A stretch of 64,000 nucleotides of DNA from Candidatus Binatia bacterium (GCA_963664395.2 OY761159.2:3513710-3577709), one strand, 5' to 3'; shown: positions 25,799 through 56,774, numbered from the stretch's first letter. Made by a program: numbers and translations. Notes: generated from the sequence alone by a model not told the origin.

Positions 25799-26116
25799 AT
25801 GGTCGGAGTAGGATATAAACGTTTCTGGGGCTATTTCGGGTTTTGGGAAGCGTTCCGGTTTCCCGAAGATGAACTCGAATATCCGAGTGGAAAGCAACGT
25901 CTTCCTCTACATGAATGGACGGTTGAGCGTATGATACGGGCGAATTACCTGTATGCCGGGCCTGTGGATGAGGTGGTGCAAGGGATGGATGCCTTGGCCG
26001 ACGCGGTAAACCCGGAATGGTTTGCGTGGCTGTTTGACCAGGGGCTCCTGCCTCGGACAGAACTGAGGAAGCAGCTTGAACTATTCGGCAAACATATTTT
26101 GCCACGCTATCGTTAA
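25799..26116 (+). pseudogene. C-terminal remnant of a luciferase-like (LLM-class) flavin oxidoreductase
   Basis: Only about 105 codons are present. The segment '...YAGPVDEVVQGMDALADAV...WLFDQGLLPRTELRKQLELFGKHILPRY' resembles the last third of LLM enzymes. There is no room for the N-terminal two thirds, because the upstream gene ends at 25734. Confidence 0.45.
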
Positions 26117-26183
26117 CGCCGAAAACGACGAAGAAAACACGCGCCCGCAACACGCGCAGGACAGAAATCAGACGGACCGCAGC

Positions 26184-27416
26184 ATGCCACAGTTCCAATA
26201 CCAGGCGACCACCCCGCAAGGAAAAATCATTGAAGGCGTGCGGGAAGCGGGAGAGGAGCGGGCGGTCGTGGCGTGGCTCCATAAGCAGGGCTATATACCC
26301 CTCAGCGTCGCACTGCCGCACCGCCGGGAAGCCGCCCCCACGCGGAAATGGTTGTCTCTGCCGGCGCTGCCGTGGAGTGGCCACATCTCGCAGCGTGACT
26401 TGCTGCTCCTGACCCGCGAGCTGGCGACCATGCTCTCGGCCGGGTTGCCGCTGGACCGGGCGCTGGCGATCCTGGTCGGGCTCACTGAAAAAGCCGCACT
26501 CAGCCACGTGGTGGCTGAAGTGTTGAAGGCCGTCCAGCAAGGCCAATCGCTGGCAGAAGCTTTGGCCGAGTATCCCCACATCTTTCCGCCTCTGTATATT
26601 AATATGGCGCGGGCAGGAGAAGCCGGCGGCTTTCTGGAGACGGCCTTGCAGCGCGTAGCGGAATATCTTGAGCGTGCCCAAGAGGTCCAGGAGGAAGTGA
26701 AGTCAGCCCTCGCCTACCCCGTTATTCTGGTGCTCTTTGGCACTGGGGCTATTGTTTGCATGTTCATATTTGTCCTGCCGCGCTTTGCCGGCTTATTCGC
26801 CGATAGCGGCCAGACGCTCCCGGCTTCAACCCAGTTCATGTTGACGACCAGTGAGGTCCTGCGTGCCTATTGGTGGGGATTCCTGTTGTTCGGGGTTGGC
26901 AGCGTCTTCGGCTGGCGGCGCTACGTCGCCACTCCCCAGGGTCGCCTGACGTGGGACGGATTCTGTCTCCGCCTGGTGCTCCTCGGTCCCTTACTCCAAA
27001 AGCGCGAGGTGGGTCGTTTTTCCCGCACTCTGAGTACCCTGCTCAGCAGTGGGGTGCCGTTGCTCCAGGGACTTGAGATCGTGGAGGCCGTTATTGAGAA
27101 TAAGGTCATTGGTCAGGCCGTCAAGGAAGTCCGGGCCGGGGTCCGGGAAGGGCAGGGGATTGCCGCACCGCTCGGACGAACCGGGGTGTTCCCGACGATG
27201 GCGCTTCAGCTGATCGGGGTGGGCGAGGAAACCGGTCGTCTGGATGAAATGCTGAAACAAGTTGCCGATTACTTTGAGCGCGAGACGCAGCAGCAGATCA
27301 GGCGAATGACCTCGCTGGTTGAACCGGTCCTGTTGCTGACCATGGGACTGATTATCGGCTTTGTCGTGATTTCCATGCTGGTCGGCATCTTCAGTATGAA
27401 CGACATGGCCCTGTAA
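26184..27416 (+). CDS. gspF: Type II secretion / type IV pilus platform protein (GspF/PilC family)
   Basis: About 410 aa starting 'MPQFQYQATTPQGKIIEG', with two GspF repeats and TM segments. Confidence 0.9.
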   Translation: MPQFQYQATTPQGKIIEGVREAGEERAVVAWLHKQGYIPLSVALPHRREAAPTRKWLSLPALPWSGHISQRDLLLLTRELATMLSAGLPLDRALAILVGLTEKAALSHVVAEVLKAVQQGQSLAEALAEYPHIFPPLYINMARAGEAGGFLETALQRVAEYLERAQEVQEEVKSALAYPVILVLFGTGAIVCMFIFVLPRFAGLFADSGQTLPASTQFMLTTSEVLRAYWWGFLLFGVGSVFGWRRYVATPQGRLTWDGFCLRLVLLGPLLQKREVGRFSRTLSTLLSSGVPLLQGLEIVEAVIENKVIGQAVKEVRAGVREGQGIAAPLGRTGVFPTMALQLIGVGEETGRLDEMLKQVADYFERETQQQIRRMTSLVEPVLLLTMGLIIGFVVISMLVGIFSMNDMAL

Positions 27417-27437
27417 CGGACAGAAAGGAGACGGCGT

Positions 27438-27872
27438 ATGCAGCCCAACAAAAAGACTCTACTCAATCAAGCTGGCCAATCCGGCTTTACACTTATTGAA
27501 CTCCTGGTCGTGATGGTGATTATCGGTTTGCTGGTTGCGCTGGTTGGGCCGAACGTGATGGGCCGCGCCGAGAAAGCCAAGCCGCAGGCCGCCCGGGTGC
27601 AAATCGAAAATCTGTCCAGCGCGCTTGAGATGTTCAAGTTGGACGTCGGCAGGTATCCGACCGAAGAGGAAGGGCTGGCCGCGCTCCGTGAAGGGCTGTC
27701 CGGAGTGGCCCGCTGGGATGGCCCTTATCTCAGAAAAAAGGTGCCCAAGGACCCCTGGGACCAGGCCTATGTCTATCGCCGCTCAGGAAGAGAATTCGAG
27801 GTGCTCTCCTATGGGGCCGATGGTGTGACGGGCGGTTCCAGCGTTGACGCCGATATCCTCAGTTCCGAATAA
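27438..27872 (+). CDS. gspG: Type II secretion major pseudopilin GspG
   Basis: Prepilin leader and cleavage motif 'QSGFTLIELLVVMVIIGLL', plus GspG core motifs 'PTEEEGLAAL', 'WDGPYL', 'DPWDQAY' and 'SYGADG'. Confidence 0.9.
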   Translation: MQPNKKTLLNQAGQSGFTLIELLVVMVIIGLLVALVGPNVMGRAEKAKPQAARVQIENLSSALEMFKLDVGRYPTEEEGLAALREGLSGVARWDGPYLRKKVPKDPWDQAYVYRRSGREFEVLSYGADGVTGGSSVDADILSSE

Positions 27873-27909
27873 GAGGCGGGGTCAGAGGCCGAATAATGAG
27901 GATGAGTGG

Positions 27910-29388: not shown

Positions 29389-30014
29389 CCGCAATTCGGG
29401 CCGCCTGGCAACGATTCTCTCCCCGAGAGCGCACCTTGGCCGGTCTCGCCCTGGGCGCGTTGGTCGTGGTTGGTCTCCGCTATGGTATTGTCACCCCATA
29501 CCTGGCGTATACAACCCGGCTCGAAGAGATGATCGACCGGGACGTGCAGCGTATTGCAAAAATGCAACGCCAGTGGGACCGGGCTGAAGAAGTCCGGAAG
29601 CGCGCGCGCACCCTGGAGAGGCGCTTTGCTGCGGCCTATAAACAACTGATCCCAGGGGAAACTCCTACACTCGCTGCCGCCCAGCTCCAGGAACGGGTCC
29701 AAACCCTGGCCGGTCAAAGTGGGCTGACAGTGGTCACGACTCAGGTGCGGAAAGAGAAATCGCTCGGATCATTGCGCAAGACCGCAGTCCAAATGACTCT
29801 TCGGGGGGACACGCCCGCTATTGCAGATTTTCTTTCACGCGTTGAGTATGGGAAGTGGTTGCTGTCCGTGTCCCGTTTAGAGGTCGGCCGGGGTACTACC
29901 CGCCGGAGAAGAAGAAAGCGGGCGGCGGCGGCACGCCCCCCACTCACGATTACGCTTGAGGTAGAGGGCGTCATGCAGGGAGCGCGGGCGACACAGACGG
30001 CGCGGGCGGAGTAA
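29379..30014 (+). CDS. GspM/PilO-like inner-membrane assembly protein
   Basis: 211 aa with an N-terminal TM segment followed by a coiled coil. Its position after the GspL-like gene fits, but there are no strong motifs. Confidence 0.55.
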   Translation: MRLAAIRAAWQRFSPRERTLAGLALGALVVVGLRYGIVTPYLAYTTRLEEMIDRDVQRIAKMQRQWDRAEEVRKRARTLERRFAAAYKQLIPGETPTLAAAQLQERVQTLAGQSGLTVVTTQVRKEKSLGSLRKTAVQMTLRGDTPAIADFLSRVEYGKWLLSVSRLEVGRGTTRRRRRKRAAAARPPLTITLEVEGVMQGARATQTARAE

Positions 30015-30023
30015 AACGCAGTC

Positions 30024-33004: not shown

Positions 33005-33018
33005 AATCAGCCTTACAC

Positions 33019-33116
33019 ATCCCCTCCTTGGAGGGAAAGAGGAAACGTGTCCTCAACAGAGTAGGCAGATGTTGACACGTTTCCTCTTTGTGCCGCGTGA
33101 GCGGCGGGGTGGGTTT
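33019..33116. repeat. Family-A element (reverse orientation) split by a family-B hairpin (33037-33090)
   Basis: Reads tcccctccttggaggg | aaagaggaaacgtgtcctcaacagagtaggcagatgttgacacgtttcctcttt | gtgccgcgtgagcggcggggtgggtt. The same composite occurs at 38669-38766. Confidence 0.85.
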
Positions 33117-33140
33117 CTTCTGGGTTTCTTCTCTGGGGGG

Positions 33141-33212
33141 AAGCTAAGACAAAAGAGGCAGGGGGCAACCCACCCCGGCCCTTCGGGCCACCCCTCCAAG
33201 GAGGGGAGCAGA
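33141..33212 (+). repeat. Left copy of the direct repeat flanking the DUF559 gene
   Basis: Reads agctaagacaaaagaggcagggggcaacccaccccggcccttcgggccacccctccaaggaggggagcaga. Confidence 0.85.
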
Positions 33213-33216
33213 GATT

Positions 33217-33606: not shown

Positions 33607-33663
33607 GACAAAGGGGCAACCCACCCCGGCCTACGGCCACCCCTCCAAGGAGGGGAGCAGAAC
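33600..33663 (+). repeat. Right copy of the direct repeat flanking the DUF559 gene (overlaps its stop codon)
   Basis: Reads agctaagacaaaggggcaacccaccccggcctacggccacccctccaaggaggggagcaga. Confidence 0.85.
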
Positions 33664-35100: not shown

Positions 35101-36627
35101 ATGAAGATGAATAAAATGTTTACGGGCCTAATCGCGTTGGTGGCGGGCGTTGCCCTCTCGGCGGGGAGTGCCTTTGCAACCAAGGGTTACTACCATAGGT
35201 GACCCGGCCAGGATGAAACTGGTCCCTTATTATGAGACCGGAGAGCTCGCTGACCGCGATTGTCAATGTCCAGAACCTGTCGCCGCAAGAGGCCACTACT
35301 GCGGCTCTGCAATGGCTGTTACGGCTGCTCAGGCTGCATTGGATGCTCTTAATGATATGGAGTTGAGCCTGACCATGCAGATACAATGCGGGCTGATGCT
35401 GAGATGGCCCTTGCGGATGCTATGGATGCGCTTTACACCGAACACCTCTTCGTTGTCGTGAATGTCCACGACGCAATGGGTATGATGATGGAGGATGCGT
35501 CAGAGAACTGTGTCTGGCAGAGAACCAGTTCGGATATGTCATTCTCACGGGGTTTGAGATGATGCATGGCGGAGATATCCCCAACCGCAGCGCTTGGTGC
35601 TCTCGATGGGCTGGTGACATCCCCGCATACGGCTATGTGAAGTCATGGCGGAGGGTCAGAAATGGTACGGCTGCGAGGGCCGCCCCGGCGACCTGACGGA
35701 TGGAGGCAGGTTACTGAGCCAGATTGCTGAGTAGCGGATTGTAGGCACTGAGTCCATTTGGCCAGCTCGCCGCCTGGACCATGTCCAGGACACTGGCACT
35801 GGTGCTTCTTCGGGACGGAAGTGATCGACCCTGCTCGATGGACCATTCTCCAGGACGTTGGGAGTGGTTTCTTCGGGACGGAATTGCATGCCCGACTGGC
35901 CTGCTATACAATTACAATGATGGCGGATGAGATGCTGAGCCACTCGATGATGCTACTGCCTGCCCGAATGATGCTACCGCTAAGTGTGACCCAGCAATAT
36001 GACAATAGGAATCCGACTTCATGATCCGGTGCGGCTTGATTCCCGAACGGCATGATAACAGGGGCGATCTACCAATGCATGCGACGGTACTGGGACTGAC
36101 TATGCCGCTGTCTGATGATGCGAGGCAACCACTCCTCGACTCCATGGTCATGCCATCGCCCGGTACGATACTGGGGCTGATGATTCCATGTCTTTGTGTG
36201 GTTGGCAACAGGCCACGACGATGAGGATGCCCCATGCGAGCGATGTCCCGGCCCGCTTGCGTAATCGTGATGCGAAGACGGGACGATGGCATGATTCCAG
36301 GGGACCATGTATCGCCGGGTGATGATGGCCCATCGCAAGTCCCCGCCCCGACCATAAGGTCACCATGATAGACCCGATGGTGATGCTGGGTCATGTACAC
36401 CGACATGTGATGCGGGCGACCGCGGTGTGCTGCGAATCACGATGCCGGATGGCAGCCACGCCGGCATGGTGTGGACCCATATCTCTCAGATGAATGGAAC
36501 AACTTCCGCATGAACTTCCCTGGGTACAACATGGCCAATCCGATGCCTGATGAGATGGGTGTTGCTGACGTGAGGCTGATGGAAACTGAGGTGGCTGCGG
36601 CCGCCTGCATGGCCCGTAACTCATCGT
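35101..36627 (+). pseudogene. Decayed gene for a secreted protein with a Met/His/Asp-rich C-terminal half (multiple frameshifts)
   Basis: A good RBS and the signal peptide 'MKMNKMFTGLIALVAGVALSAGSAFA' are present. Protein-like segments then hop between all three + frames ('KLVPYYETGE', 'TAIVNVQNLSPQE', 'HLFVVVNVHDAMG', 'ENQFGYVILTGFE', 'MNFPGYNMANPMPDEMGVADVRLMETEV'). The gene ends at a stop directly before a strong terminator. No ORF over 105 codons exists across 1.5 kb. Confidence 0.5.
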
Positions 36628-36965: not shown

Positions 36966-37072
36966 ATCTCGCACCACCGGGCTGTCTTCACGTAAGCCCT
37001 CTAGCCCTTGACGCTGTTTTGTGCTCTGCTCTATTCTCAAATGCACAGAAGGAGAAAGGGAGGACGTACCGT

Positions 37073-37297
37073 ATGACCCGTAAACGACCTGATGGCACGA
37101 CGGAAGGAATGCGGGCGCTCAGTGTGTCGGAGGGGAGGGGTGAAGCAGAAGCAAAAAAAATAGGGCGGAAGGCCCCTGTGGATTCCACGGAAGACGATTA
37201 CGATTACATGATTGGGCAGGCGTGCGTTCGGGATTTGAAAGCTGGGCGCACCCACATCGTTCCTGACGAAGAATGGTTGCTGCGATTGATGAGCTGA
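37073..37297 (+). CDS. ORF in the antitoxin position; its 3' third looks like the displaced N-terminus of the RelE-like toxin
   Basis: The ATG at 37073 follows aaagggagga. The tail '...MIGQACVRDLKAGRTH' resembles the 'A.RDLKKL' start of RelE/ParE toxins. Confidence 0.35.
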   Translation: MTRKRPDGTTEGMRALSVSEGRGEAEAKKIGRKAPVDSTEDDYDYMIGQACVRDLKAGRTHIVPDEEWLLRLMS

Positions 37298-37467
37298 AGT
37301 CTCCTGACGTGAGTCATAAGAAGGTGAAGAAGCTCAAAGGGCGGAAGAAGGGAGAACCACCGATCTACCGAGTCCGTGCTGGAAATTATCGGGCGTTGTA
37401 CACGGTTGATGAGAATGATGGCGTGACCATCCTGCATATCCGTCACAGAAGCGACGCCTACAAGTAG
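37208..37467 (+). pseudogene. RelE/ParE-family toxin interrupted by one frameshift near 37262-37270
   Basis: The downstream frame reads 'RRMVAAIDELKSPDVSHKKVKKLKGRKKGEPPIYRVRAGNYRALYTVDENDGVTILHIRHRSDAYK', which is the RelE core. The N-terminal part lies in the other frame. Confidence 0.6.
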
Positions 37468-46446: not shown

Positions 46447-48763
46447 TCCGAACAGTCCCGATTACACCAACACCCCGGCCTCGGACCGGCGTCCGGGCTA
46501 TGGCTATCGCCCGGTTGATCCGACCGCCCCGCCGGTCGTGACCATCGTGACGCCGTATTGCAACACCGGGGCGATTTTTCATGAGACGGCGCGGTCCGTC
46601 TTGCGGCAGTCTTTCCAGCAGTGGGAATGGATCATTGTCAACGACGGTTCTACCGACCCGGAAGCGCTGGCTGTTCTCGACTCCTACCGCAACACAGACA
46701 CAAGGATTCGGATTATTGATCACAAGGTCAACCAGGGGCCCAGCGCCGGACGGAATACTGCGTATCGGGCCGCCCGTGCAGAGTACATCGTCCAGCTCGA
46801 TACGGACAATATGCTGGAGCCAACAGCTATAGAAAAATGGATCTGGCTATTGGAATCCTATCCCGAATTCGCGTTTGTGAAAGGCTACTCGGTCGGCTTT
46901 GATGCCCGTGAATATCTCTGGGATCAGGGATTCCACAACGGTGGCGTCTTCCTTGAACAGAATCTGGTGGACATCACCAGCGCGCTGCGGCGCAGCGTGC
47001 ATACTGCCGTCGGCGGCTATGACGAAACGATTCGAGGCGGACTGGAAGACTGGGACTTCTGGCTGCACTGCGCCAGTCAGGGCCATTGGGGCACAACGCT
47101 GCCGGAGTATCTCGACTGGTACCGCCGCCGCGATAATCACGGCGAGCGCTGGGATAACTGGGATGGTGGGAAGCGCGAGGCTGACTTTCGGAAACAACTG
47201 CGTCAGCGCTACCCGCGTCTCTGGGAAGATTTTCCTACCCCCCAAGCCGCGCCGCTTACGCCGTATGAAACCGTCTCCGATACCTTGCCGTGGGATAATC
47301 GACTCCAAAAGGAAAAACCCCGCCTGTTATTGATCGTGCCGTGGCTGGCCATGGGCGGGTCGGACAAGTTCAATCTGGATTTGCTCGGCCAACTCGTCCG
47401 GCGAGGCTGGGAAGTGACCATTGCCACAACGCTCAGCGGCGATCATCCCTGGCTGGCCCAATACGCTGGCTTGACGCCCGATATTTTTATCCTGTACCAT
47501 TTTCTTCGACCGGCGGACTATCCGCGCTTTGTGCGCTATCTGATCCACAGCCGGGAGATGGACGCCGTGCTCGTCTCGCATAGCGAATTCGGCTACCAAC
47601 TCCTGCCCTATCTGCGAGCGTATTTCCCCAGGCTGCCCTTGCTCGATTTTTGTCATATTGAAGAAGAGGCGTGGAAGAACGGCGGCTATCCGCAGATGTC
47701 GGTCACCTACCAGGAAACGCTTGATCGTAGCCTGGTTTCGTCGGAACATCTGAAAGGCTGGATGGCAGGGCGGGGTGCGGACCCGGCTGCCATCCAAGTC
47801 TGTCATACGAATATCGACGCCGACTATTGGCAGCCCGACGCCGAGCGGGGCCGCCGTGCCCGCCAGCAATACGATATTGCTGCATCAACGCCGCTGATTG
47901 TGTTTGTCGGACGCATCTGTGCGCAAAAACAACCGAAAGTACTGGCGCAGACAGCCCTCCGCCTTGCTCAGGACCGGACGGATTTCGTACTGGTGGTTGC
48001 CGGCGACGGGCCGGATTTTGGGTGGCTCAAGACTTTTATTCGCAAGCACCGGCTGGAGCGACAGGTCCGCCTTGTTGGGGCGTTGTCCAATACAGACATT
48101 AGGGACCTGCTGGCCGCGGCGGACATGTTCTTTCTCCCCTCCGAATGGGAGGGCATTGCGCTTTCGGTCTATGAAGCCCTGGCCTGCGGGGTGCCGGTTG
48201 TGGGGGCTGATGTGGGCGGACAGCGTGAGCTGGTCACGCCCGAATGCGGGGTGCTGATTGACCGTGAGTCGGAAGAAGACGAAGCCCGGCAGTATGCGAC
48301 CGTCCTGGCCCGACTGCTGGACGAGCCGGAGCAACGGAAAAGCATGGGCCGGCAGGGGCGTCAGCGTATTCTGGATCACTTTCGACTGGAGCAGATGACC
48401 GAGAACATTCTGGCAGCATACGAAGCAGCACGGCAGGAACGGGGCGCGGCCACCGCGCCGGTTCCCGGCCTTGGTCTCGGGCGCGCCTGTGCAACCCAAG
48501 CGGTGGAGTATCTGCGGATCACAACCGTGACGGACTGGCTCTGGCAGGAACAGGAGCAGGGCACTGGACAAGGGCAGGGAACGAGCTTGATTCCGGCCCA
48601 CCTTGTGGCCGCGTATGGCCACTCCTGGCGTACGGTATTGTATTTTTCGGTCCGGCGGATGTTCTTGCCGGTGTATACGGCCTTGCTCAAGACAAACCGT
48701 CCGTGGCTGTTATCCCTGAAAAATCGTCTCAAACGGCGCTTGCTCCGTGAGGGAACTCCATGA
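46439..48763 (+). CDS. Dual-domain glycosyltransferase (GT2 then GT4)
   Basis: Contains 'VTIVTPYCNTGAIFHETARSVLRQSFQQWEWIIVNDGSTD', 'IVQLDTDNM' and 'EWEGIALSVYEALACGVPVVGADVGGQRELV'. Confidence 0.85.
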   Translation: MIDPNSPDYTNTPASDRRPGYGYRPVDPTAPPVVTIVTPYCNTGAIFHETARSVLRQSFQQWEWIIVNDGSTDPEALAVLDSYRNTDTRIRIIDHKVNQGPSAGRNTAYRAARAEYIVQLDTDNMLEPTAIEKWIWLLESYPEFAFVKGYSVGFDAREYLWDQGFHNGGVFLEQNLVDITSALRRSVHTAVGGYDETIRGGLEDWDFWLHCASQGHWGTTLPEYLDWYRRRDNHGERWDNWDGGKREADFRKQLRQRYPRLWEDFPTPQAAPLTPYETVSDTLPWDNRLQKEKPRLLLIVPWLAMGGSDKFNLDLLGQLVRRGWEVTIATTLSGDHPWLAQYAGLTPDIFILYHFLRPADYPRFVRYLIHSREMDAVLVSHSEFGYQLLPYLRAYFPRLPLLDFCHIEEEAWKNGGYPQMSVTYQETLDRSLVSSEHLKGWMAGRGADPAAIQVCHTNIDADYWQPDAERGRRARQQYDIAASTPLIVFVGRICAQKQPKVLAQTALRLAQDRTDFVLVVAGDGPDFGWLKTFIRKHRLERQVRLVGALSNTDIRDLLAAADMFFLPSEWEGIALSVYEALACGVPVVGADVGGQRELVTPECGVLIDRESEEDEARQYATVLARLLDEPEQRKSMGRQGRQRILDHFRLEQMTENILAAYEAARQERGAATAPVPGLGLGRACATQAVEYLRITTVTDWLWQEQEQGTGQGQGTSLIPAHLVAAYGHSWRTVLYFSVRRMFLPVYTALLKTNRPWLLSLKNRLKRRLLREGTP

Positions 48764-49446
48764 GAGATGTGCGGGATACCTATATTAGCCAGGTTGCGGC
48801 TGGAAAATCGTTTGCCGATGTTGGCGGGCTGTGGGGGACCGTGAATGAAAAGGTTTCGGTTGCCCATACCCACGGCGCGCGGGCGCTGACCATGATCGAT
48901 GTCTCACCGCACGACAGTGAGCTGTGGGCATTGTTTGATGAGCGGCGGCGCACGCTCCGGCTGCCGACTGTTGAGTGTGTGAGCGGAGATATTCTGACCT
49001 TGGCAGAGGCAGACCCCCGCCCGCAGTTCGATGTCGTGCACTGTTCCGGAGTGCTGTATCACATGCCTGAGCCCATGCAGTTTTTACGTGCCCTACGCAA
49101 GATAACCCGTGAGGCCCTCGTCCTCACTTCGGCGATCACCGCGACTCGGGTCGAAAGCGCAAAAGGGATCCTTGAGATTCCTGCCGCGGCCATGCTGTGT
49201 ATCCCGGCCCTTCAAGGCCGAGAGCGTGAGATCGTGCAATCCTATTGGCGGGGCATTGTCGGCGATGGGGCGTTCGGCATCACTCAGGAGGTGGCGGAGT
49301 GGAGTTTTGAGGATTTCGGCCCCTGGTGGTGGCTGCCGACGGCTGAGGCGCTCAGAGCTATGTGTGAGGTGGCCGGGTTCCGCCATGAAGCCGGAGCGCC
49401 AAGTTGGAATGGTAATGCCTACACCTTGCGGCTGTCTGTGCGGTAG
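48760..49446 (+). CDS. Putative SAM-dependent methyltransferase
   Basis: 228 aa with 'SFADVGGLWG' (motif-I-like) and 'FDVVHCSGVLYHMPEPMQFL'. The start overlaps the upstream stop. Confidence 0.6.
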   Translation: MRDVRDTYISQVAAGKSFADVGGLWGTVNEKVSVAHTHGARALTMIDVSPHDSELWALFDERRRTLRLPTVECVSGDILTLAEADPRPQFDVVHCSGVLYHMPEPMQFLRALRKITREALVLTSAITATRVESAKGILEIPAAAMLCIPALQGREREIVQSYWRGIVGDGAFGITQEVAEWSFEDFGPWWWLPTAEALRAMCEVAGFRHEAGAPSWNGNAYTLRLSVR

Positions 49447-49488
49447 AACATTCCGGTTTGTATTACATTGTAGGGGGGGAGTTTCAAA

Positions 49489-52140
49489 TCATGGCTCTTC
49501 AGCAGCGAGTTTATCGCCCACATGAAGCCTAATGGCCGGAGGGAGTAACCTGTCGTCGCGGAGCATGGGTGGATACTGAAGCTCGGAGACACGCCCGTCT
49601 TCTGACACAGCAAAGACACGCAGGGTCAGGGGAGAGCTTTTCGAGAAATTATCCAATGGCAAGGTATAGCGGAAGCCGGATTGGCGAAGTGCCGGTTTTC
49701 TAAAGTGGCTGGCTACGTCCGGTCGAACAACACCAAACCCACCAGCGTGAAAAAATTCTCCATTGACATAAACCCAGATCTCTTTAGCGATTTGAGTCTG
49801 TTCAACATCGGCCGCCCAGCCGGCCAACTCAAAATGTCCATCATGTATTTTGCCCAGATCGACCCAGCCTTGGAGGGAAGAGACGACTACCGGGTGAAGA
49901 GTTCCCTGTGGAGACATGATCATAGGTTGATTGGGAGAAGGATATGGGGGCAACTGGTCAAAAATTCCCGTGGGTCGTAGCAATGTAATCTTTTCGGCCG
50001 TCTTCGAAATAATAAATATTTCGATATCATTTGCGCCCTGCTGAAATGCTTCTTCTGCCACAATTGCAGACCAAGCTCCTGACTCACCTTTGACCGAGAA
50101 TTGCCATGGCCGGGTTACGGCCTGAATTGTGCCATTCACTGCGACCGCCAAGGTATGGGTAGTCTTGGCGTCTTCTTGCGAACGGATTCGGCCGGTGATG
50201 TGAGCGGGAATAAAGGCTGATTCAATATCGACAGCAGCAAAGAGATCAGGAGAGTCATACTTGATAGAGATCGTATGGTCCTCTCTATGGTTAAAATCGG
50301 AGAGTGGACGACCGGTGAGAGAACGGGACTCGCCGTTGTGAATAAGCCCCAAATCCCGGGGAGATACATCCCCCGAAGTAAGACTAAGCTTATAGTCAAC
50401 GGACTCTTGCAGTATCTGCTGTGAAATAGGCACAAGGCTCAGGCGTTTGTCTATATCCTTGAACGAGAAAAAGGAGAGAGCTTCTCGCTTGTTGTTAGCA
50501 TTCAAGGCGGATTGTCCATCTGTTGGCCAGGGGAGTGTAACGCCTAAAAGCTCTGCCACGGTCGGCAAGATATCAGTTGTTTCGACGGAAGATTCGATCA
50601 GGAGTGCTTCCTGCTGGTATGGTGCCTTAATAAAGAATGGGACCAGGGCAATATCACCGTGATTAGTATCTGTCATTTGGCGATGAAACCCACCGGCTCG
50701 AAAATTGACTCCGTGGTCGGAGGTAATAATGATGAGAGAACGATCATAGAGGCCAACTTGACGAAGGTGAGCAAGTAGCTGTCCCAAAAGATTATCTACA
50801 AATTTGACTTGGAGAAGATAGCGTTGGTAGTTCTGCGCAATCGCCCATGTGTCATTCCCCCATTGAGCTTTACTGTGCTCAGAAAGCCCAGCGAGGTCTC
50901 TATCTCTGCTGTACAGTTTTCCTGACGGCAAATAGTTGTAAAGGACATGGGGGAGAAGAATATGAAGATAATGGAGGGTTGGTTGTGGTTGGGGCTTAAT
51001 GGCATTCGCAAATTCGGCAAACTGTTCAAAACGGTCAACCCACATACCCTCGGTTATGGAATCCCAAATATCTTTTTTGATTCGTGCTTTCCCCTTTTTG
51101 TCAATAGGAGAAGAAACAGGAATGTAGGGAGAAGGCGTTCCGCCAAAGTTCATCCAATTTTGGGTAATAGGGGGAAGCCATACACGTAGGTCCGACGGAA
51201 GGAGCAGATGAAGATAGACAATTGATAGGTCGGAGCCAAGGGCCACGAGGTGTTGAGGCAGACTGTCCTTCCTGGGCTTATTACAGAGTGCATCGGGACA
51301 GAGCATGGTGAAGGTACCGAATGTTTTAATTGTATAGGCGTCTTGCAAGAGGGTAAAAATGTTGTGGGGATGATCATTTGCTATAGGCAGAAGAGAAGAA
51401 TCTGGATATCGCCCTGTTAGTATAGCCGGGATCGCGTACAGTGTTGTGTCACTCACGGTGGTGGTATTTTTGAACCACGTTGCATTCTTCGCAAAAGCCG
51501 CGAAATTCGGATATTGAGCAGGGTCAATCTGCAAATCCTTGTCAAGCAGAGAGACCAAAGAGAACTCGTCAAAAACCACCATGACGATAGGCGGTGGATT
51601 GTCAATCTCGACTCCCGTAACAGCAACTTCTTCTTGAGAAAAAAGAATATTCGAGACCGGAGAGAAGAAGAGAAAGAGGGCTGGCACGAGCACCAGGCCG
51701 GGCGAGAGCAGGGTGAAAAATGTCCGTATCACGGGGAAGCGGTAATAGCCGACGACCGTGAGCAGGCCAATCAGACTAGCACTGGCAACGAGAATGGCAC
51801 CTGGCACATGTGGTACTGCCTGCACGACTTGAACTGCGAGGGCAGCCAAGCAAACTGCTAATAGACACAACAGCAGCCCAAGACTTACCCCTCTATGAAT
51901 CCAACTCATCACCCATGCCGGGAGCAGGAGCAGGGTAGGGAAGCCCAGGAACAGGAGCAGGACAAACAGGATGATATCGAGCGGGGCAGACTGGCGGATG
52001 ACAAAGAATTCAGCGTGACGAGACAGGAGATCGAATAACGGCTGCGTCACTGCGAAATTCCACACTATCAGGAAGTGCAGGCTGCACAGTGCAAGCCCTG
52101 GATAGCGGGATATGGGGAAGGCTGGTTGATGCTGGCTCAT
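49489..52140 (-). CDS. Membrane-anchored sulfatase / alkaline-phosphatase-superfamily transferase (LtaS/phospho-substituent transferase-like) with a C-terminal beta-rich extension
   Basis: 883 aa with N-terminal multi-TM segments, 'IVMVVFDEFSLVSLLD' and 'IIITSDHGVNF', plus about 350 extra C-terminal residues. Confidence 0.8.
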   Translation of the reverse strand: MSQHQPAFPISRYPGLALCSLHFLIVWNFAVTQPLFDLLSRHAEFFVIRQSAPLDIILFVLLLFLGFPTLLLLPAWVMSWIHRGVSLGLLLCLLAVCLAALAVQVVQAVPHVPGAILVASASLIGLLTVVGYYRFPVIRTFFTLLSPGLVLVPALFLFFSPVSNILFSQEEVAVTGVEIDNPPPIVMVVFDEFSLVSLLDKDLQIDPAQYPNFAAFAKNATWFKNTTTVSDTTLYAIPAILTGRYPDSSLLPIANDHPHNIFTLLQDAYTIKTFGTFTMLCPDALCNKPRKDSLPQHLVALGSDLSIVYLHLLLPSDLRVWLPPITQNWMNFGGTPSPYIPVSSPIDKKGKARIKKDIWDSITEGMWVDRFEQFAEFANAIKPQPQPTLHYLHILLPHVLYNYLPSGKLYSRDRDLAGLSEHSKAQWGNDTWAIAQNYQRYLLQVKFVDNLLGQLLAHLRQVGLYDRSLIIITSDHGVNFRAGGFHRQMTDTNHGDIALVPFFIKAPYQQEALLIESSVETTDILPTVAELLGVTLPWPTDGQSALNANNKREALSFFSFKDIDKRLSLVPISQQILQESVDYKLSLTSGDVSPRDLGLIHNGESRSLTGRPLSDFNHREDHTISIKYDSPDLFAAVDIESAFIPAHITGRIRSQEDAKTTHTLAVAVNGTIQAVTRPWQFSVKGESGAWSAIVAEEAFQQGANDIEIFIISKTAEKITLLRPTGIFDQLPPYPSPNQPMIMSPQGTLHPVVVSSLQGWVDLGKIHDGHFELAGWAADVEQTQIAKEIWVYVNGEFFHAGGFGVVRPDVASHFRKPALRQSGFRYTLPLDNFSKSSPLTLRVFAVSEDGRVSELQYPPMLRDDRLLPPAIRLHVGDKLAAEEP

Positions 52141-52155
52141 CTATACTCGTGCGCC

Positions 52156-53574
52156 TCACGCCTGGCGTTTACTCCGCGCGTAGTAGAGCCGGCGCGTGCC
52201 TGATTCGAGCGTCTCTTGCTGGTCAATTTCAAATGCGTCGGCCAGACAGCGCTCGAAATAGGTGGTCTCATAGTCCGTATAATGATCGGCCTTGTGCCGC
52301 AGCAGGGTTTGGACCATGGGGTCGTCTCGGGTGACGAATTCTATGACCAGATCAGAGCCGAGACTTGCCAGCCAAGAGACGAATTCTCCAAGTGGAATAT
52401 GAGCGCTGATAACCACATGGTGGAGCAAGGCCAGACATAAGGTCAGGTCGGGCGTGCCGCGCTCGATAAGTGCCTTGCGTTCCAGACCACGCCAGCCGAG
52501 ATTCGGGGTGGGGTCGGCCACGTTGCTGATGAGCGGCAGGATATTGGGCGCGTGTTCTTGCTTGAGCGCGTTATAGAAGCGTTCAATCACCAGAGCATCG
52601 ATATCCATTGCCAGCACATACTCCGCATTTTCCGCGGCAATGCGCGAAAACGTGCCGGTATTGCAGCCCAGGTCCCAGACCAGATTCCAGGGTCGGGAGT
52701 GGCTGATACGCCGCACGAAATCGGCCTTCTGCGCTTGCTCACGTTGCGTGTAGGGGAGGGCTTCTGTGTAGTCGGACCAGGTTGAGCGCGTCTGCTGCCA
52801 GGTCAGCTTGGCAACCTGTTTCCGCAGCCGACTGACATTGGCCTGGATCAACGCCTTATGAAAGCCGGCCTGGCGTAAATCTTTCTTGAGGTTGCGCTCC
52901 GTGTGGGCATAGGACGATTGGGCTTTGGCCTGGAGGATGACATGGGAAAGAATGCCCGGACGAAGCATATCTCTGAGCGACATGAGTTGCGCGCACTGGG
53001 CTGGTTCAATGCCTTCCAGATTGCCACGCAGCCAGGGCTGAAAGGGCACGTCTTTGTAGGCTTGCAGAAAGAGCGGATAGAGAAACAGTTGACAGAACTG
53101 GCGGTAGCCGACCCACGGTTCGCCGGGCCGCAGCCGCTCGAACGAGGGAATATCGATAAAGACCGGCCGGCTGCCGAACCATTGGACGTTGAAGGGCGTC
53201 GCGTCTTTGAGTGTCATGTCGGTACGCAGCGCGGCGTCCTGGAGTTCGAGGGTCAGCAGCGCGGCGTCCTGCAACATGCTGAACGACCACTCGTAGGGAT
53301 AGGAAATAAAGGGAATCGGCTGATGTTGTAAGACGACGGACCATTGTTCGTCTTTGGCCAAGGGCGAGGCGGCCAACTCAATCTGTTCGGTCCGGACCAG
53401 CTTGCCGGCTGTCATGAACTGCTGAAAAAAAGGCTTTGAGGTGAGGGCTTCCCACTCTTGGGCGGCATGCGGGTTGAGGCCGCGCAGGACCGCTCCGTCC
53501 CGGTAAAAGACCCGGTTGGTGCGGTCGCGGAACGAACCCGGCTCGAAGTCAGTCAAGTCGGTCAAGTCGGTCAT
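52156..53574 (-). CDS. Two-domain protein: N-terminal domain of unknown function plus a C-terminal class I SAM methyltransferase
   Basis: 472 aa with 'ISYPYEWSFSMLQDAALLTLEL', 'LKDATPFNVQW...FIDIPSF' and motif I 'VWDLGCNTGTFS'. Confidence 0.75.
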   Translation of the reverse strand: MTDLTDLTDFEPGSFRDRTNRVFYRDGAVLRGLNPHAAQEWEALTSKPFFQQFMTAGKLVRTEQIELAASPLAKDEQWSVVLQHQPIPFISYPYEWSFSMLQDAALLTLELQDAALRTDMTLKDATPFNVQWFGSRPVFIDIPSFERLRPGEPWVGYRQFCQLFLYPLFLQAYKDVPFQPWLRGNLEGIEPAQCAQLMSLRDMLRPGILSHVILQAKAQSSYAHTERNLKKDLRQAGFHKALIQANVSRLRKQVAKLTWQQTRSTWSDYTEALPYTQREQAQKADFVRRISHSRPWNLVWDLGCNTGTFSRIAAENAEYVLAMDIDALVIERFYNALKQEHAPNILPLISNVADPTPNLGWRGLERKALIERGTPDLTLCLALLHHVVISAHIPLGEFVSWLASLGSDLVIEFVTRDDPMVQTLLRHKADHYTDYETTYFERCLADAFEIDQQETLESGTRRLYYARSKRQA

Positions 53575-53601
53575 GGTGAGCGGGGAGAGAGGGGGGATGA
53601 T

Positions 53602-53871
53602 TTACTGCTGTTCAGGCGGAGCTTTAATCTCGATTTCCGAATCAACGGCTGGCGGTTCGGAGGCGGTGTCGGCTTCGGCCCGGCGCAGGCCAAACATTAC
53701 CAAGAGCTGCTGCCAGTAGAGTTTGAGCAACACGGCGAAGCCGGCCAGTCCGCCCAGCACGATCTGGAGCAGCATACTGCCGCTGCCCGGATCGAGATAG
53801 GCAAGGGCCGCAGGAGGCGCTACCAGGCTGAGGAACAAAACAATGAGGCTACAATGTCCAAGCTGTTGCAC
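53602..53871 (-). CDS. Small membrane protein (hypothetical)
   Basis: 89 aa with two hydrophobic segments around 'AYLDPGSGSMLLQIVLGGLAGFAVLL'. It is the first gene of the minus-strand trio. Confidence 0.55.
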   Translation of the reverse strand: MQQLGHCSLIVLFLSLVAPPAALAYLDPGSGSMLLQIVLGGLAGFAVLLKLYWQQLLVMFGLRRAEADTASEPPAVDSEIEIKAPPEQQ

Positions 53872-53987
53872 GCGCTACTCCCCCCGTGTGTCACGGCTAT
53901 TCGCATATCTGGCATATACATGTAACACGCGTGTAATAACTGATCCCGGACGTTTTCTCAATGGCGAGGATACTGAGGGGATGTGTT

Positions 53988-54033
53988 CTGCTCCCCTCCT
54001 TGGAGGGGTGGCCGTAGGCCGGGGTGGGTTCCT
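53988..54033. repeat. Family-A element (reverse orientation)
   Basis: Reads ctcccctccttggaggggtggccgtaggccggggtgggtt. Confidence 0.85.
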
Positions 54034-54149
54034 TAGGACAGGTGCATGTTGACTGTTTGGCGGTGGCTCTGGTAAATGTGGATACTGTGGAAAGATGGAA
54101 AAGTCGTATGTGGCAAGAGCGTGTATCACCGAGGGGTGAGGGGGAGAAA

Positions 54150-56774
54150 ATGAAAGCAATATTGACAGCAAAAGTAGGCATGTTCCTGGTTGTTTCCTCA
54201 GTCCTCGCAATATGGACGCTCCTGGCCGCCCAGCATGTTCAGGCGCACACGACAAGGAGTCTCTGTCCACTCCTAGTTGTAGCAGCCTTCCTAACGGCTG
54301 ACTGGATTTTTTGATGAGGGCAGATGGCCCGTATGCCTCAAGTAGCAGCACTTAACCAGCATTCCCCAGTCTCAACAAAGAAAGGAACCGGTGAAACCGG
54401 AGGGGTAATAAAAACTATTATCACTACGCCAAGATTACGGTCCCCGCACTGACGGCAGGGGAGCTGATGGTGTCTGATGCAACGAACCCCTGATGGTCCC
54501 TCGGACTGGATTCTCTGTCGGGGAAGACAAAGGATTGCGGAATCTCGACCGAGCTACACGACGGCCCATTGCCGAAAAACCAAGCCGACGCTAATGCCGC
54601 GGCCCAAGACCGAGCGCCGAAACCGGCCTTGTTAAGTGATTGCCGGATTCCTAACCCGCTGACCGGCTGACCAAACCGAGTGACATGCATAGCGCCGCTG
54701 CCGATGACGCCTTAAGCACAGCCGCCACCGCCTTGCTCGCCTCCGCCTTAAGGAAGCCGGACGCTGACCATGCGCCGCTGACGCCGACGCCGACGCTACG
54801 ACTGCTGCCGACCGCCGAGGGGCCGAAATGCCAGCACTGACGCTGGTCGCCGATACCGCCGGATGTCGCCACCGTGAACGGACTAAGCTCCGCGGCTCGC
54901 CTTGGAACCGCCGCCACCGCCTTACCACTGCCGCCACCGCCTTAGACCGCCGCCGACGCCTTAGACAGCCGTCATATGGATGTCGCATGTCCATTAACAC
55001 ATTGATCTCGTCGGGAGATGAAGAATATGTGGTGGTCGTTTCGGTCCCGGCAGGTAACCATGCCCTGCCATTGACCGTCTCGTTCGAAAGGCGTGATGGC
55101 TACTGCCGCGTGGATGATCAGAACGGACAGGACGAAGGCTCGTTTACGAGCCCGAATAATCAGCGGATTATCCGCACCCTCGATGACCACCGCCACCGAC
55201 CCTGGGCTCCTGACCGTGAAGACGACAGGGAGCGCGGTGGATACGAAGGAACACTTGCGGCTGTACCACCGGCTAGATCGTTGATGGACGAGGGTAGTGG
55301 GGGCAATTTTGAGATTGTTCTCACCAGTAAAGGCCGGATGCTACTACTTATACCTGTGATTGTAGAGGGGACAGACCCGCAGTGAGAGAGGGGATTACGG
55401 CCTGAAGGTGGAGTTCGGAGTCGCAACTTAGGTAATGATAGCGCCCCAGGTTCGAGTCATCGAAAGCGGACCAATACGCTCTGACGCCCGGTACCGATAA
55501 TGATGATCTTGAGATGCAGGGATTCCGGACGCGCGGATTACTTCTTTTTTACTTCTGAAGACCGGCTACGGATTCCTGACCGTAGAGACCAGAGGAAGCC
55601 CACGACGGTGTTACAACGGAGACGAACACCACAGGGACGCTCTTTTCACAACTGAAGGGCAGGTTGTGACGGACACTGATAGTGGCACTGGCAACAATTT
55701 CCTGATTCGTGCGCCAATCTCGCCGGGGATTACATTGTAGAGGTGAAGGGGTCGAGTTCATCCACGACAACAACGGACGAGGGGACTACGTGTTGGTGAA
55801 CGACCTCCGAAACGGCTACCACTCCTCGGGGATTGCCCTCATCGATGGGAGGCGGTACTACGGGATGCGACTGCGCAAGGCTGTTATTGCGCTACTGGAG
55901 CGGAGTGTGAACCCCCTACTCAATCAATGTCGACAAAGCAGGCACCCTGCAAGTGAAGACGACAGGGACATCGATACGATTGGGGTTCTCTATGGGCCGG
56001 ATGGCCAGCAGATTGCTGAGGACGATGATAGTGGCGACGGACATGAATTTCATGATTCACTCAGGCTGTCGAGGCCGGACAGTATATTGTGACGGTAGAG
56101 GGGAAGGCCGAGATACGGTGGGTGCTTACACCTTAGTGGTGAACTTCGTAGAGAGCATTGTTGTTGGGACGACAAACCAAGTGGCGGAGTTGGAGCAGGA
56201 GCGGGATACTGCGCTGGCAGAGCGGAATTGCGCGGACTGAGCGGGATGATTTGAGGAGGTGGATGATTTGAGGGACGAGGTCGCTCCGGTTACGGTCGAT
56301 GCGACGGGTAACTTGGGGAATCCTCCCAATGACGGTGGAGTCAGAAGCGGCATTGGGCTCATCTCGGGCTGGGTGTGTGCGGCCAATGAGTGTCGAGATT
56401 CGTATTTCTAATGCCCAAGGATTCTCAACAAGGCAACCCTGAATGCCGCGTATGGCACGACCCGACCCGATACGGTCGGGCAGTGTGGCATCAAGAGCCC
56501 CAATACCGGGTTTGGGATGACGTACAACTTCAATCATCTGGACGAGGGACATATACGATCGGAGCCTATGCGGACGGTCTCGACGAGCAGATTGGCCCGA
56601 GCCGCTACTTTTGAGGTCGTCCATCTCATGGACTTTGCAGCCATTGATGACGATAGATTCCTGCGAGGATTGAAGGGTGAGTGTCGCGCGGATGATTTCC
56701 CTGAAATGGGAGACAAGACGATTCTGGAGTGGGAACAGAGTATCCAGAACTTCGTGATTAGCGACGTGCAGTAA
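54150..56774 (+). pseudogene. Heavily frameshifted gene for a large secreted repeat protein (three PPC-like beta-sandwich repeats plus a C-terminal domain)
   Basis: Signal peptide 'MKAILTAKVGMFLVVSSVLAIWTLLAAQHVQA'. Motif strings are then scattered over all three + frames: 'LLTVKTTGSAVDT', 'DEGSGGNFEIVLTS', 'GDYGLKVEF', 'TDTDSGTGNNFLIRA', 'GDYIVEVKG', 'GTLQVKTTGTS', 'DTIGVLYGPDGQQIAEDDDSGDG', 'VEAGQYIVTVEG', 'GAYTLVVNF', 'GTYTIGAYADGLDEQIGPSRYF' and 'EVVHLMDFAAIDDDRFL...ISDVQ'. The stop at 56772-56774 is followed by a terminator. Confidence 0.55.

What the first reader, a model, noticed from the sequence alone, without database searches (positions are those of the whole stretch)
25799..56774. 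Frameshifts and truncations are confined to accessory genes while about 25 kb of housekeeping genes are flawless
**Disrupted genes**
- LLM remnant (25799).
- Secreted Met-rich gene (35101-36627, many shifts).
- RelE (about 37265).
- DUF1640 copies 1 and 2 (39136, 39497).
- GT2 (two +1 shifts, about 43070 and about 43490).
- Tail of the GT4-GT2 gene (extra base at about 46263; the repaired frame ends overlapping the next start codon).
- PPC-repeat gene (54150-56774, many shifts).

In contrast, infB (953 aa), polA, pnp, purL and nusA are all uninterrupted. Most of the lesions I could pin down are 1-2-nt indels, some in short homopolymers.

Random sequencing error should not respect gene category. 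The pattern therefore suggests one of the following:
- relaxed selection and ongoing decay of surface or accessory functions
- strain heterogeneity collapsed into a consensus
- poor polishing of repeated or low-coverage regions
Basis: partly seen in the sequence, partly recalled or inferred. Interest (0 to 1): 0.6.

Follow-up and report, generated by a model that had tools for sequence, protein, structure and literature searches.

The report
Strain-mix assembly errors, not gene decay
The broken genes are really there in the deposited sequence. Nearly all the breaks look like consensus errors, made where a long-read metagenome assembly merged several co-existing strains at strain-variable genes, so this is a data-quality warning and not evidence of decaying surface functions.

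Summary
All seven lesions exist at the stated coordinates, and the roughly 24 kb housekeeping block has no frameshift. The pattern is mostly an assembly artefact.

- **The genome** is a Candidatus Binatia MAG: one 4.8-Mb contig plus 13 short contigs. Each short contig is a 94.5-99.6% identical strain copy of a chromosome region.
- **The two heavily scrambled genes** carry 18-23 and 26-36 shifts, about one per 60 nt. Both are hypervariable cassettes. Same-species contigs from other assemblies match the window at about 98-100% up to the gene edges, then diverge. Those contigs carry intact genes of 500-519 and 862 aa.
- **The mended G000 proteins** show no extra divergence and no stop inside a conserved block.
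- **Both GT2 insertions and one DUF1640 deletion** sit exactly on bases that vary between strains. At 43080 the window reads GAAG where strains read GAA or GAG.
- **A nearby CRISPR array** is garbled only at its strain-variable end.
- **Genome-wide**, shared genes carry about one shift per 85 kb regardless of conservation, so a clean 24-kb block is expected.
- **Two lesions are true deletions**: about 295 codons of a luciferase-like gene and 105 nt of a RelE/antitoxin pair.

This scan reached the same verdict on other genomes.

The parts
1..24000 (.). Housekeeping block (nusA, infB, rbfA/truB region, pnp, polA, purF, purL, purB and others), all intact
   Evidence: Pfam identities. The frameshift-aware protein-DNA alignment against G006 and G012 orthologues found no in-gene shift.
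25766..26104 (+). Remnant of a luciferase-like monooxygenase gene. Only the last 113 codons remain and about 295 N-terminal codons are absent. This is a true deletion, not a frameshift.
   Evidence: It is 88% identical to residues 396-508 of the G006 and G012 orthologues. The intact orthologue matches Bac_luciferase. Sister genomes have 0.9-2.8 kb of extra DNA at this point. G000 holds more than 70 paralogues.
35101..36627 (+). Secreted Met-rich protein gene. It is a hypervariable cassette and is scrambled by about 18-23 small indels.
   Evidence: Shift counts are 18 against G012, 21 against G006 and 23 against same-species L111. L111 is identical to the window through the promoter, ribosome-binding site and signal peptide up to about 35181, and again from about 36628; in between it diverges by 10-29% plus gaps. 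Intact genes of 500 and 519 aa occur in the same-species contigs L109 and L111.
37019..37467 (+). Remnant of a RelE/ParE toxin-antitoxin pair. A 105-nt deletion at about 37273 removes the antitoxin C-terminus and the first 25 or so codons of the toxin.
   Evidence: ParE_toxin matches profile positions 26-89 only. L109 and L111 have intact 77-aa and 90-aa genes and 105 extra nt, between short GAA(A)TGG repeats, with flanks 99% identical.
38881..39400 (+). DUF1640 (CCDC90-like) copy 1, broken by a missing GT at 39136 inside a tandem 21-nt-repeat coiled-coil region
   Evidence: Pfam shows the N-terminal part in one frame and the C-terminal part in the next. Same-species L111 is 98% identical here, has an intact 169-aa gene and has the extra GT.
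39402..39679 (+). DUF1640 copy 2, broken by one missing base at 39498
   Evidence: The window reads CACG-ACACG where L109 reads CACGAACACG and L056 reads CACGGACACG, so the missing base is at an A/G polymorphic column. Frame 3 changes to frame 2 in tblastn.
43014..43981 (+). Family-2 glycosyltransferase gene with two 1-nt insertions, at 43080 and 43487
   Evidence: The frame goes 3 to 1 to 2 against four sister orthologues. At 43080 the window reads GAAGCTC where strains read GAA-CT(C/T) or GAG-CTC. At 43487 the window reads TATATCGCAC where strains read TATGCGCAC, TATATCAAC or TATTCAAAC. Both sites fall on variable columns, which make up 71 of 966. A cluster of 53 proteins holds intact 321-aa versions up to 313/321 identical.
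43971..46443 (+). GT4-GT2 fusion gene. Its last 61 or so codons are out of frame after 46244-46261, in a tandem-repeat tail whose length varies between strains.
   Evidence: Frame 3 changes to frame 1. The window has 19 nt more than G007 and L108 and 44 nt fewer than L056. Relatives range from 797 to 1141 aa. The restored frame ends at 46443, overlapping the next ATG at 46439.
54150..56774 (+). Secreted 'PPC-like' repeat protein gene. It is a second hypervariable cassette and is scrambled by about 26-36 small indels.
   Evidence: Shift counts are 36 against G006, 26 against G012 and 33 against same-species L112. L112 differs from the window by 0-5 bases per 200 nt in most bins of 52800-54200 and 56800-59000 (one bin at 57000 has 10 mismatches and a 21-nt gap). 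Inside the gene it differs by 7-51 bases per 200 nt, plus gaps. An intact 862-aa gene sits at the same place in the same-species contig.
40127..42984 (+). Intact accessory genes: wzt and wzm (ABC exporter) and a methyltransferase
   Evidence: Pfam; no shift.
46439..53574 (.). Intact accessory genes: GT2-GT4 (774 aa), a methyltransferase, a low-GC sulfatase-family gene (883 aa, minus strand) and a 472-aa gene (minus strand)
   Evidence: Pfam; no shift.

Best explanation
The window comes from a long-read metagenome-assembled genome of a Candidatus Binatia species that was present as several co-existing strains. Where the strains agree, as in housekeeping genes and most other genes, the consensus is clean. 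Where they differ, the assembler and polisher merged reads of different alleles, or could not polish the allele that had been chosen.

The strains differ at two cassette-like hypervariable secreted-protein genes, in tandem-repeat regions of variable length, and at single polymorphic bases. Merging there produced small spurious indels. They are very dense in the two cassettes, at about one per 60 nt, and isolated at polymorphic sites in GT2, DUF1640 and the GT4-GT2 tail.

The genes are most likely intact in the organisms. Two lesions are of a different kind and are probably real: the luciferase-like monooxygenase remnant and the 105-nt deletion in the RelE/antitoxin pair.

Shown here: the lesions, the strain copies in the bin, the cassette structure, and the coincidence of indels with polymorphic columns. 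Inferred: that the indels arose during consensus building.
For: 1. **Strain mixture in the bin.** All 13 small contigs are 94.5-99.6% identical copies of chromosome regions. Where the two copies differ by an indel that is not a multiple of 3, the chromosome copy has the open frame in 27 of 30 decidable cases. Contig C6 breaks two 3.2-kb ORFs 7 and 5 times at 99% identity. So this assembly does produce dense spurious indels.
2. **Both scrambled genes are cassettes.** Same-species contigs from other assemblies are about 98-100% identical up to the gene edges, diverge strongly inside, and carry intact genes.
3. **No sign of neutral decay.**
   - The mended PPC-like protein is as close to the outgroups as the intact G006 protein (0.503 and 0.445 against 0.508 and 0.431).
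   - The Met-rich protein's identities (0.53-0.58) lie within the range seen among intact proteins (0.48-0.61).
   - Every read-through stop lies in an unalignable stretch, with flank identity of 0.38 or less.
   - Inside stretches at least 85% identical to the intact same-species allele, 1-nt gaps are the commonest class (11 of 24 in the PPC-like gene, 16 of 39 in the Met-rich gene) and 1-2-nt gaps make up about half to two thirds. One example has three 1-nt losses within 20 nt.
4. **Sparse indels sit on strain-polymorphic columns.**
   - At 43080 the window reads GAAG where strains read GAA or GAG.
   - At 43487 the window joins the start of one allele to the end of another, one base too long.
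   - Variable columns are only 71 of 966.
   - At 39498 the missing base is at an A/G column.
5. **The CRISPR array** 6-8 kb upstream of the window has irregular units and five truncated repeats in its leader-proximal, strain-variable part. Its seven leader-distal units are exactly 60 nt.
6. **Genome-wide rate.** In 937 shared genes (925 kb) there are 11 verified shifts in 10 genes. Their conservation matches that of unbroken genes (median identity 87.2 against 87.5%, P = 0.74). Only 9 ORF-poor stretches of 900 nt or more exist in the chromosome. Two are these cassettes, one is the rRNA operon and one is the CRISPR array.
7. **Published precedent.** Flye collapses strains about 98.65% identical into consensus contigs, and indels are a main cause of frameshifts in such assemblies (PMC8302730).
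Against: - Coverage and allele mixture at these loci are therefore inferred.
- No independent assembly of exactly the same strain was found. The closest contigs carry different cassette alleles, so individual indels inside the cassettes cannot each be assigned to error.
- The sequencing platform and pipeline of G000 are not known to me.
- A same-species contig at only 5.85x or 7x coverage has open frames, so low coverage alone does not explain the density.
- A same-species contig at 58x (L108) also shows split GT genes. That could mean real variation in that repeat region.
- Chromosome regions that have an alternative contig are not enriched for chromosome-side frameshifts: 3 in 190 kb.
Confidence: 0.82

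Rival explanations
1. Plain local under-polishing or low coverage, with no role for strain mixing. A stretch of the draft contig stayed at raw-read quality because few reads covered it.
For: The indel density in the cassettes, about 1.5 per 100 nt, is close to raw-read level. The low-quality alternative contigs show that the assembly contains poorly supported sequence.
Against: The dense patches begin and end exactly at the borders of strain-hypervariable cassettes, and the flanks are flawless. The sparse indels fall on polymorphic columns and contain both alleles. Same-species contigs at 5.85x and 7x coverage keep open frames. A chromosome-sized contig is unlikely to lose coverage only inside two genes unless the reads there belong to other alleles.
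Confidence: 0.1
2. Real decay. This lineage lost a glycosylated surface structure, and the linked genes (two secreted proteins, GT2, GT4-GT2) are pseudogenes under relaxed selection.
For: All broken genes are accessory, and several belong to one neighbourhood of surface and glycan genes. Two lesions are genuine deletions.
Against: - There are 18-36 frameshifts per gene with no excess amino-acid divergence and no nonsense codon in conserved blocks. By my estimate from general knowledge of bacterial pseudogenes, neutral decay producing that many indels should add at least 7% substitutions and several stops.
- Small indels dominate: 1-2-nt gaps are about half to two thirds of those in near-identical context. 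Decay would be expected to give a wider spread of deletion sizes.
- Same-species strains with 98-100% identical flanks have intact genes.
- The GT2 insertions duplicate strain alleles.
- At least 12 neighbouring accessory genes, including the wzt/wzm exporter and other GTs, are intact.
Confidence: 0.05
3. Mixed case. The dense cassettes are artefacts, but the isolated lesions in GT2, DUF1640 and the GT4-GT2 tail are real mutations of the dominant strain.
For: The genome-wide rate of about 1% frameshifted genes is within the normal range for real pseudogenes. The verified genome-wide cases hit dispensable-looking genes: a TonB receptor, nitrile hydratase alpha, a permease, a histidine kinase, HlyD and phosphoesterases.
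Against: Six isolated lesions within 9 kb, against an expectation of about 0.1 at the genome rate. Three of three sites mapped to the base coincide with polymorphic columns, and two read as merged alleles. The other two lie in length-variable tandem repeats.
Confidence: 0.12
4. Phase-variable contingency genes switched off by slippage in simple repeats.
For: Surface and glycosyltransferase genes are classic phase-variable targets (general knowledge).
Against: None of the mapped indels lies in a homopolymer or short tandem tract of the length needed for slippage. The contexts are GAA|G|CTC, TAT|AT|CGC, CACG|-|ACA and GAG|--|GAA.
Confidence: 0.01

Closest known systems
Indel-induced gene fragmentation in long-read genome and MAG assemblies. 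This is the problem measured by ORF-length tests such as IDEEL and addressed by tools such as proovframe (bioRxiv 10.1101/2021.08.23.457338, listed).
   Same: Small indels split genes that are intact in close relatives. There is no accompanying nonsense or excess substitution. Error density is high in poorly supported contigs of the same assembly.
   Different: The errors here are not spread evenly and are not tied to homopolymers. They are confined to loci that differ between co-assembled strains, so they mimic a biological bias towards accessory genes.
Collapse of conspecific strains into one consensus by strain-oblivious long-read assemblers (Strainberry paper, PMC8302730)
   Same: The bin contains 13 leftover strain copies at 94.5-99.6% identity. 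The consensus at polymorphic sites contains both alleles or a junction of two alleles. The CRISPR array is garbled only at its variable end.
   Different: That paper treats whole-genome collapse and SNV phasing. Here the visible damage is local, at cassettes with 10-29% divergence between otherwise near-identical strains.
Hypervariable 'metagenomic island' surface genes, such as O-antigen, S-layer or flagellin cassettes replaced between otherwise identical strains (general knowledge)
   Same: The two secreted-protein genes have flanks 98-100% identical between strains and interiors that diverge abruptly. They lie next to a wzm/wzt glycan cluster.
   Different: The function of the two proteins is unknown. 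Neither gave a Pfam hit in my own scans, and the intact same-species PPC-like protein has only a faint precomputed PPC hit.
Genuine bacterial pseudogenes from relaxed selection
   Same: The LLM remnant and the toxin-antitoxin deletion fit this kind: one member lost from a family of more than 70 paralogues, and a decayed toxin-antitoxin pair.
   Different: The frameshifted genes lack the expected nonsense codons, the wide spread of deletion sizes and the excess divergence.

Membership tests
Consensus indel artefact of a strain-mixed long-read metagenome assembly | The assembly holds more than one strain of the organism | tested here: met
   Thirteen small contigs are 94.5-99.6% identical copies of chromosome regions. 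Another sample's assembly holds two same-species contigs with this locus.
Consensus indel artefact of a strain-mixed long-read metagenome assembly | Close relatives or independent assemblies have the genes intact | tested here: met
   Four sister species and the same-species contigs L109, L111 and L112 have open genes: Met-rich 449-572 aa, PPC-like 862 aa, GT2 321 aa, and a TA pair of 77 and 90 aa.
Consensus indel artefact of a strain-mixed long-read metagenome assembly | Lesions are small indels, with no excess substitution and no nonsense codons | tested here: met
   Relative-rate comparison. All stops lie in unalignable stretches. In near-identical context 1-nt gaps are the commonest class and 1-2-nt gaps make up about half to two thirds.
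Consensus indel artefact of a strain-mixed long-read metagenome assembly | Indels coincide with positions or regions that differ between strains | tested here: met
   GT2 sites 43080 and 43487, and DUF1640 site 39498, fall on polymorphic columns. Dense patches are bounded by cassette edges. The CRISPR array shows the same pattern.
Consensus indel artefact of a strain-mixed long-read metagenome assembly | The reads do not support the indels as one haplotype | not testable with these tools
Pseudogenes from relaxed selection | A mixed lesion spectrum (nonsense codons, indels of many sizes) and raised non-synonymous divergence on the affected lineage | tested here: not met
   for the frameshifted genes. 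The feature is met only for the LLM remnant (about 295 codons absent) and the 105-nt TA deletion.
Pseudogenes from relaxed selection | Frameshifts avoid conserved or core genes genome-wide | tested here: inconclusive
   The 10 frameshifted genes among 937 shared genes have the same identity distribution as the rest (P = 0.74). Two of the 10 are in the class at or above 90% identity, which holds 42% of aligned length. Power is low, and no direct list of essential genes was tested.
Phase-variable contingency loci | The indel lies in a homopolymer or short tandem repeat tract | tested here: not met
   Sequence contexts.

The most novel reading that the evidence does not exclude
The frameshifts are real. 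Under phage or predator pressure, the dominant strain in this sample inactivated two hypervariable surface proteins and part of the adjoining glycosylation pathway, which would be a population-level loss of a receptor-like surface structure. Separately, and much more likely to be real, the two secreted-protein genes behave as swappable cassettes between otherwise near-identical Binatia strains.
Probability: 0.05. Interest if true: 0.45.

Novelty: not a real feature. Interest (0 to 1): 0.1.

Why it matters
For users of this genome, the Met-rich gene, the PPC-like gene, GT2, GT4-GT2 and two DUF1640 copies should not be annotated as pseudogenes. They should also not be used for claims about loss of surface functions or for dN/dS work.

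More generally, the case shows why consensus error in strain-mixed long-read MAGs can look biologically selective. It strikes exactly the genes that differ between strains, which are accessory surface genes, and it spares core genes.

The one piece of real biology that emerges is ordinary but useful. Two secreted-protein genes next to a wzm/wzt glycan cluster are hypervariable cassettes within a Binatia species.

Tried and rejected
- **Exact-sequence look-up** of an intact neighbour protein found nothing.
- **First genome-wide estimate:** 28 of 331 genes looked frameshifted, but this was inflated. Most were intergenic indels at the ends of stop-to-stop queries. After requiring agreement with an intrinsic frame-tracking model, 11 events in 937 genes remained.
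- **Intrinsic Viterbi frame model:** it detects sparse shifts (7 of 8 known) but calls the dense cassettes 'non-coding'. I therefore listed ORF-poor stretches instead.
- **Strand-coding metric for long non-coding stretches:** not specific enough.
- **Chromosome segment 2400732-2405084**, between two blocks of contig C6, turned out to hold normal ORFs and is not a dense-error patch.
- **My first reading of RelE as a 1-nt deletion** was wrong. The same-species contig shows a 105-nt deletion.
- **Pfam on the Met-rich and PPC-like proteins,** even the intact ones, gave nothing in my own scans.
- **The 2.5-kb ORF-poor stretch at C1:2023575-2026095** gave no Pfam hit in six frames and remains unexplained.
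- **Homopolymer-error signature:** not found. Indels between alternative contigs and the chromosome are mostly outside homopolymers.
- **Platform:** a paper on Nanopore soil MAGs (PMC12313526) describes a Flye plus one-round Medaka pipeline that would fit, but I could not show that G000 comes from it.

Full report
**Setting**

The window is G000:C1:3513710-3577709. G000 consists of one 4.82-Mb contig and 13 contigs of 10-26 kb. Every small contig is a 94.5-99.6% identical copy of some region of the large contig. The bin therefore holds one main path plus leftover strain variants, which is the usual look of a long-read metagenome assembly. Sister genomes are ENA records titled 'MAG: Candidatus Binatia bacterium'. 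Everything below rests on comparison with relatives and on internal controls.

**Checking the observation**

I fetched the syntenic regions of four sister species. I aligned their ORFs to the window with tblastn and with a frameshift-aware protein-DNA aligner of my own. Every listed lesion is there.

- **GT2:** the frame goes 3 to 1 to 2, with 1-nt insertions at 43080 and 43487.
- **GT4-GT2 gene:** it leaves frame 3 at 46244-46261. Its last 61 or so codons continue in frame 1 to 46443, overlapping the next ATG.
- **DUF1640:** copy 1 shifts at 39136 and copy 2 at 39498. Copy 3 is intact.
- **Met-rich secreted gene:** 18-23 shifts.
- **'PPC' gene:** 26-36 shifts, with a median spacing of 55-68 nt.
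- **LLM remnant:** the last 113 codons of a roughly 410-codon Bac_luciferase gene.
- **RelE ORF:** it matches ParE_toxin profile positions 26-89 only.

Three corrections apply.
- The GT4-GT2 lesion is a length difference in a repeat region, not one extra base.
- The RelE lesion is a 105-nt deletion.
- Most mapped indels are not in homopolymers.

In addition, at least a dozen accessory genes in the same stretch are intact. 'Accessory genes are broken' therefore overstates the case. Some accessory genes are broken.

**Is the contrast with housekeeping genes meaningful?**

I sampled 60 evenly spaced 20-kb pieces of sister genome G012 and aligned 937 shared genes (925 kb) to G000. I accepted a shift only when homology and an intrinsic frame-tracking model agreed. 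That left 11 shifts in 10 genes, about one per 85 kb. The genes with Pfam hits are:
- a TonB receptor
- nitrile hydratase alpha
- a permease
- a histidine kinase
- an HlyD protein
- phosphoesterases

Their conservation matches that of unbroken genes (median identity 87.2 against 87.5%, P = 0.74).

At that rate a 24-kb block is expected to hold about 0.3 shifts, so a flawless housekeeping block carries no information. What stands out is the other side. There are about 50-60 shifts between 35.1 and 56.8 kb, where about 0.25 would be expected.

**The two dense genes are strain-hypervariable cassettes**

I read the GT2 gene through its two shifts and searched with the result. This found a cluster of 53 proteins; the 15 members listed are intact and 321-324 aa long. 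Their contigs, from other ENA assemblies, include same-species sequence.

- L109 matches the window at 95-99%, and L111 and L112 at about 90-99%, outside the cassettes.
- L111 is base-for-base identical to the window through the promoter, ribosome-binding site and signal peptide of the Met-rich gene, up to about 35181.
- L111 then differs by 10-29% plus many gaps, and becomes identical again at about 36628.
- L112 does the same around the PPC-like gene. There are 0-5 differences per 200 nt in most bins of 52.8-54.2 kb and 56.8-59 kb, against 7-51 per 200 nt plus gaps inside the gene.
- Those contigs carry intact genes of 500, 519 and 862 aa.

These two genes therefore exist as very different alleles in strains that are otherwise nearly identical. 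Long reads from several strains would all anchor in the flanks at such a locus but disagree inside it.

**Evidence against decay**

- The mended G000 proteins are no further from the outgroups than intact proteins are from each other.
- Every stop in the read-through lies in a stretch that cannot be aligned. None interrupts a conserved block.
- In stretches at least 85% identical to the intact same-species allele, 1-nt gaps are the commonest class, and 1-2-nt gaps make up about half to two thirds. Insertions and deletions both occur, with insertions the more frequent in the PPC-like gene.
- In one place three single bases are missing within 20 nt.
- Decay long enough to leave 20-36 indels should also leave many substitutions and several nonsense codons. 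This is my estimate from general knowledge of bacterial pseudogenes.

**Internal positive controls for error**

- Where an alternative contig and the chromosome differ by an indel that is not a multiple of 3, the chromosome has the open frame in 27 of 30 decidable cases. Contig C6 breaks two 3.2-kb ORFs 7 and 5 times at 99% identity. This assembly therefore does contain dense spurious indels.
- A type I-F-like CRISPR array lies 6-8 kb upstream of the window.
  - Its leader-proximal part, where strains differ in spacers, has irregular spacing. Full units measure 55-62 nt, and five truncated repeats are each followed by a new repeat 26-41 nt later.
  - Its seven leader-distal units are exactly 60 nt.

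**The isolated indels**

- **43080:** same-species strains read GAA-CT(C/T) or GAG-CTC, and the window reads GAAGCTC, with both alleles side by side.
- **43487:** strains read TATGCGCAC, TATATCAAC or TATTCAAAC. The window reads TATATCGCAC, which is the start of one allele joined to the end of another, one base too long.
- **Chance of coincidence:** only 71 of 966 GT2 columns vary among the five intact sequences, and both insertions fall on variable columns.
- **39498:** the missing base is at an A/G column.
- **39136:** a GT is missing inside a tandem-repeat region of an allele that is otherwise 98% identical to an intact one.
- **GT4-GT2 break:** it lies in a repeat tail whose length differs in every strain.

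That lead prompted the column test here.

**What is probably real**

The LLM remnant lacks about 295 codons. It is one of more than 70 paralogues in the genome. The toxin-antitoxin pair has lost 105 nt between short GAA(A)TGG repeats, which removes the antitoxin end and the toxin start, with flanks 99% identical to strains that keep an intact pair. Neither is the kind of change a polisher makes. Both are ordinary.

**Verdict**

It is not gene decay and it is not a biological feature of the organism. The same verdict has been reached on other genomes in this scan. Without reads, the residual doubt is about 15-20%.

Noticed in passing
G000:C1:3505848-3507531 (6-8 kb upstream of the window; locus L057:1149-2832): A CRISPR array with a 28-nt repeat (Rfam CRISPR-DR4) and a cas6f-like gene upstream. 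The leader-proximal units are irregular, with five truncated repeats, and the seven leader-distal units are exactly 60 nt. The two halves also differ by one base in the repeat (GGACAGG against GTACAGG).
   Followed up: partly
window 53969-57660: In sister species G004, G006 and G012 the PPC-like gene lies next to the Met-rich gene. In G000 it lies 17 kb downstream, after the glycan cluster. The same-species contig L112 has the same downstream position, plus an IS1595 transposase fragment nearby. The move is therefore real for this species and not a mis-join.
   Followed up: yes
window about 24.6, 33.0-33.9, 36.7-36.9, 38.0-38.9 and 53.97-54.04 kb: A dispersed REP/MITE-like repeat of about 60-110 nt, recognisable in translation as ...PSLEGWPEGPGWV... 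or ...PLLGGVARRAGVG... It gives dozens of matches in each sister genome and flanks the variable loci.
   Followed up: no
window 35784-35823 and 35849-35886: Two diverged tandem copies (80-94% identical, 63-65 nt apart) of the IQDVGxGFFGTEV segment, which is single-copy in all four sister proteins. This may be two alleles stacked in the consensus, or a real duplication.
   Followed up: partly
window 49489-52140 (minus strand): An intact 883-aa sulfatase-family gene with low GC (49-52% against 57% for the genome). It has no nucleotide match in the sister species but is present in same-species contigs at 738-879 aa. It is not polA; polA is at 10403-13171.
   Followed up: partly
G000:C1:2023575-2026095 (locus L059): A 2.5-kb stretch at 65% GC with no long ORF and no Pfam hit in six frames. 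It lies in the 25-kb bin with the most intrinsic frameshift candidates in the genome (9). It may be another garbled gene.
   Followed up: partly
window about 53899: A possible further +1 shift near the end of a small ORF (53458-53925), seen against both G006 and G012. Identity is low and a REP-like repeat lies next to it.
   Followed up: no
locus L108:10974-16136 (same-species contig, 58x coverage): Another assembly of the same species also splits the GT4-GT2 and GT2-GT4 genes into five ORFs, breaking at different places from G000. This glycosyltransferase repeat region is trouble-prone or truly variable in several strains.
   Followed up: no
G000 genome-wide: There are more than 70 luciferase-like monooxygenase paralogues (tblastn hits to one query), which is a very large expansion of this family.
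   Followed up: no
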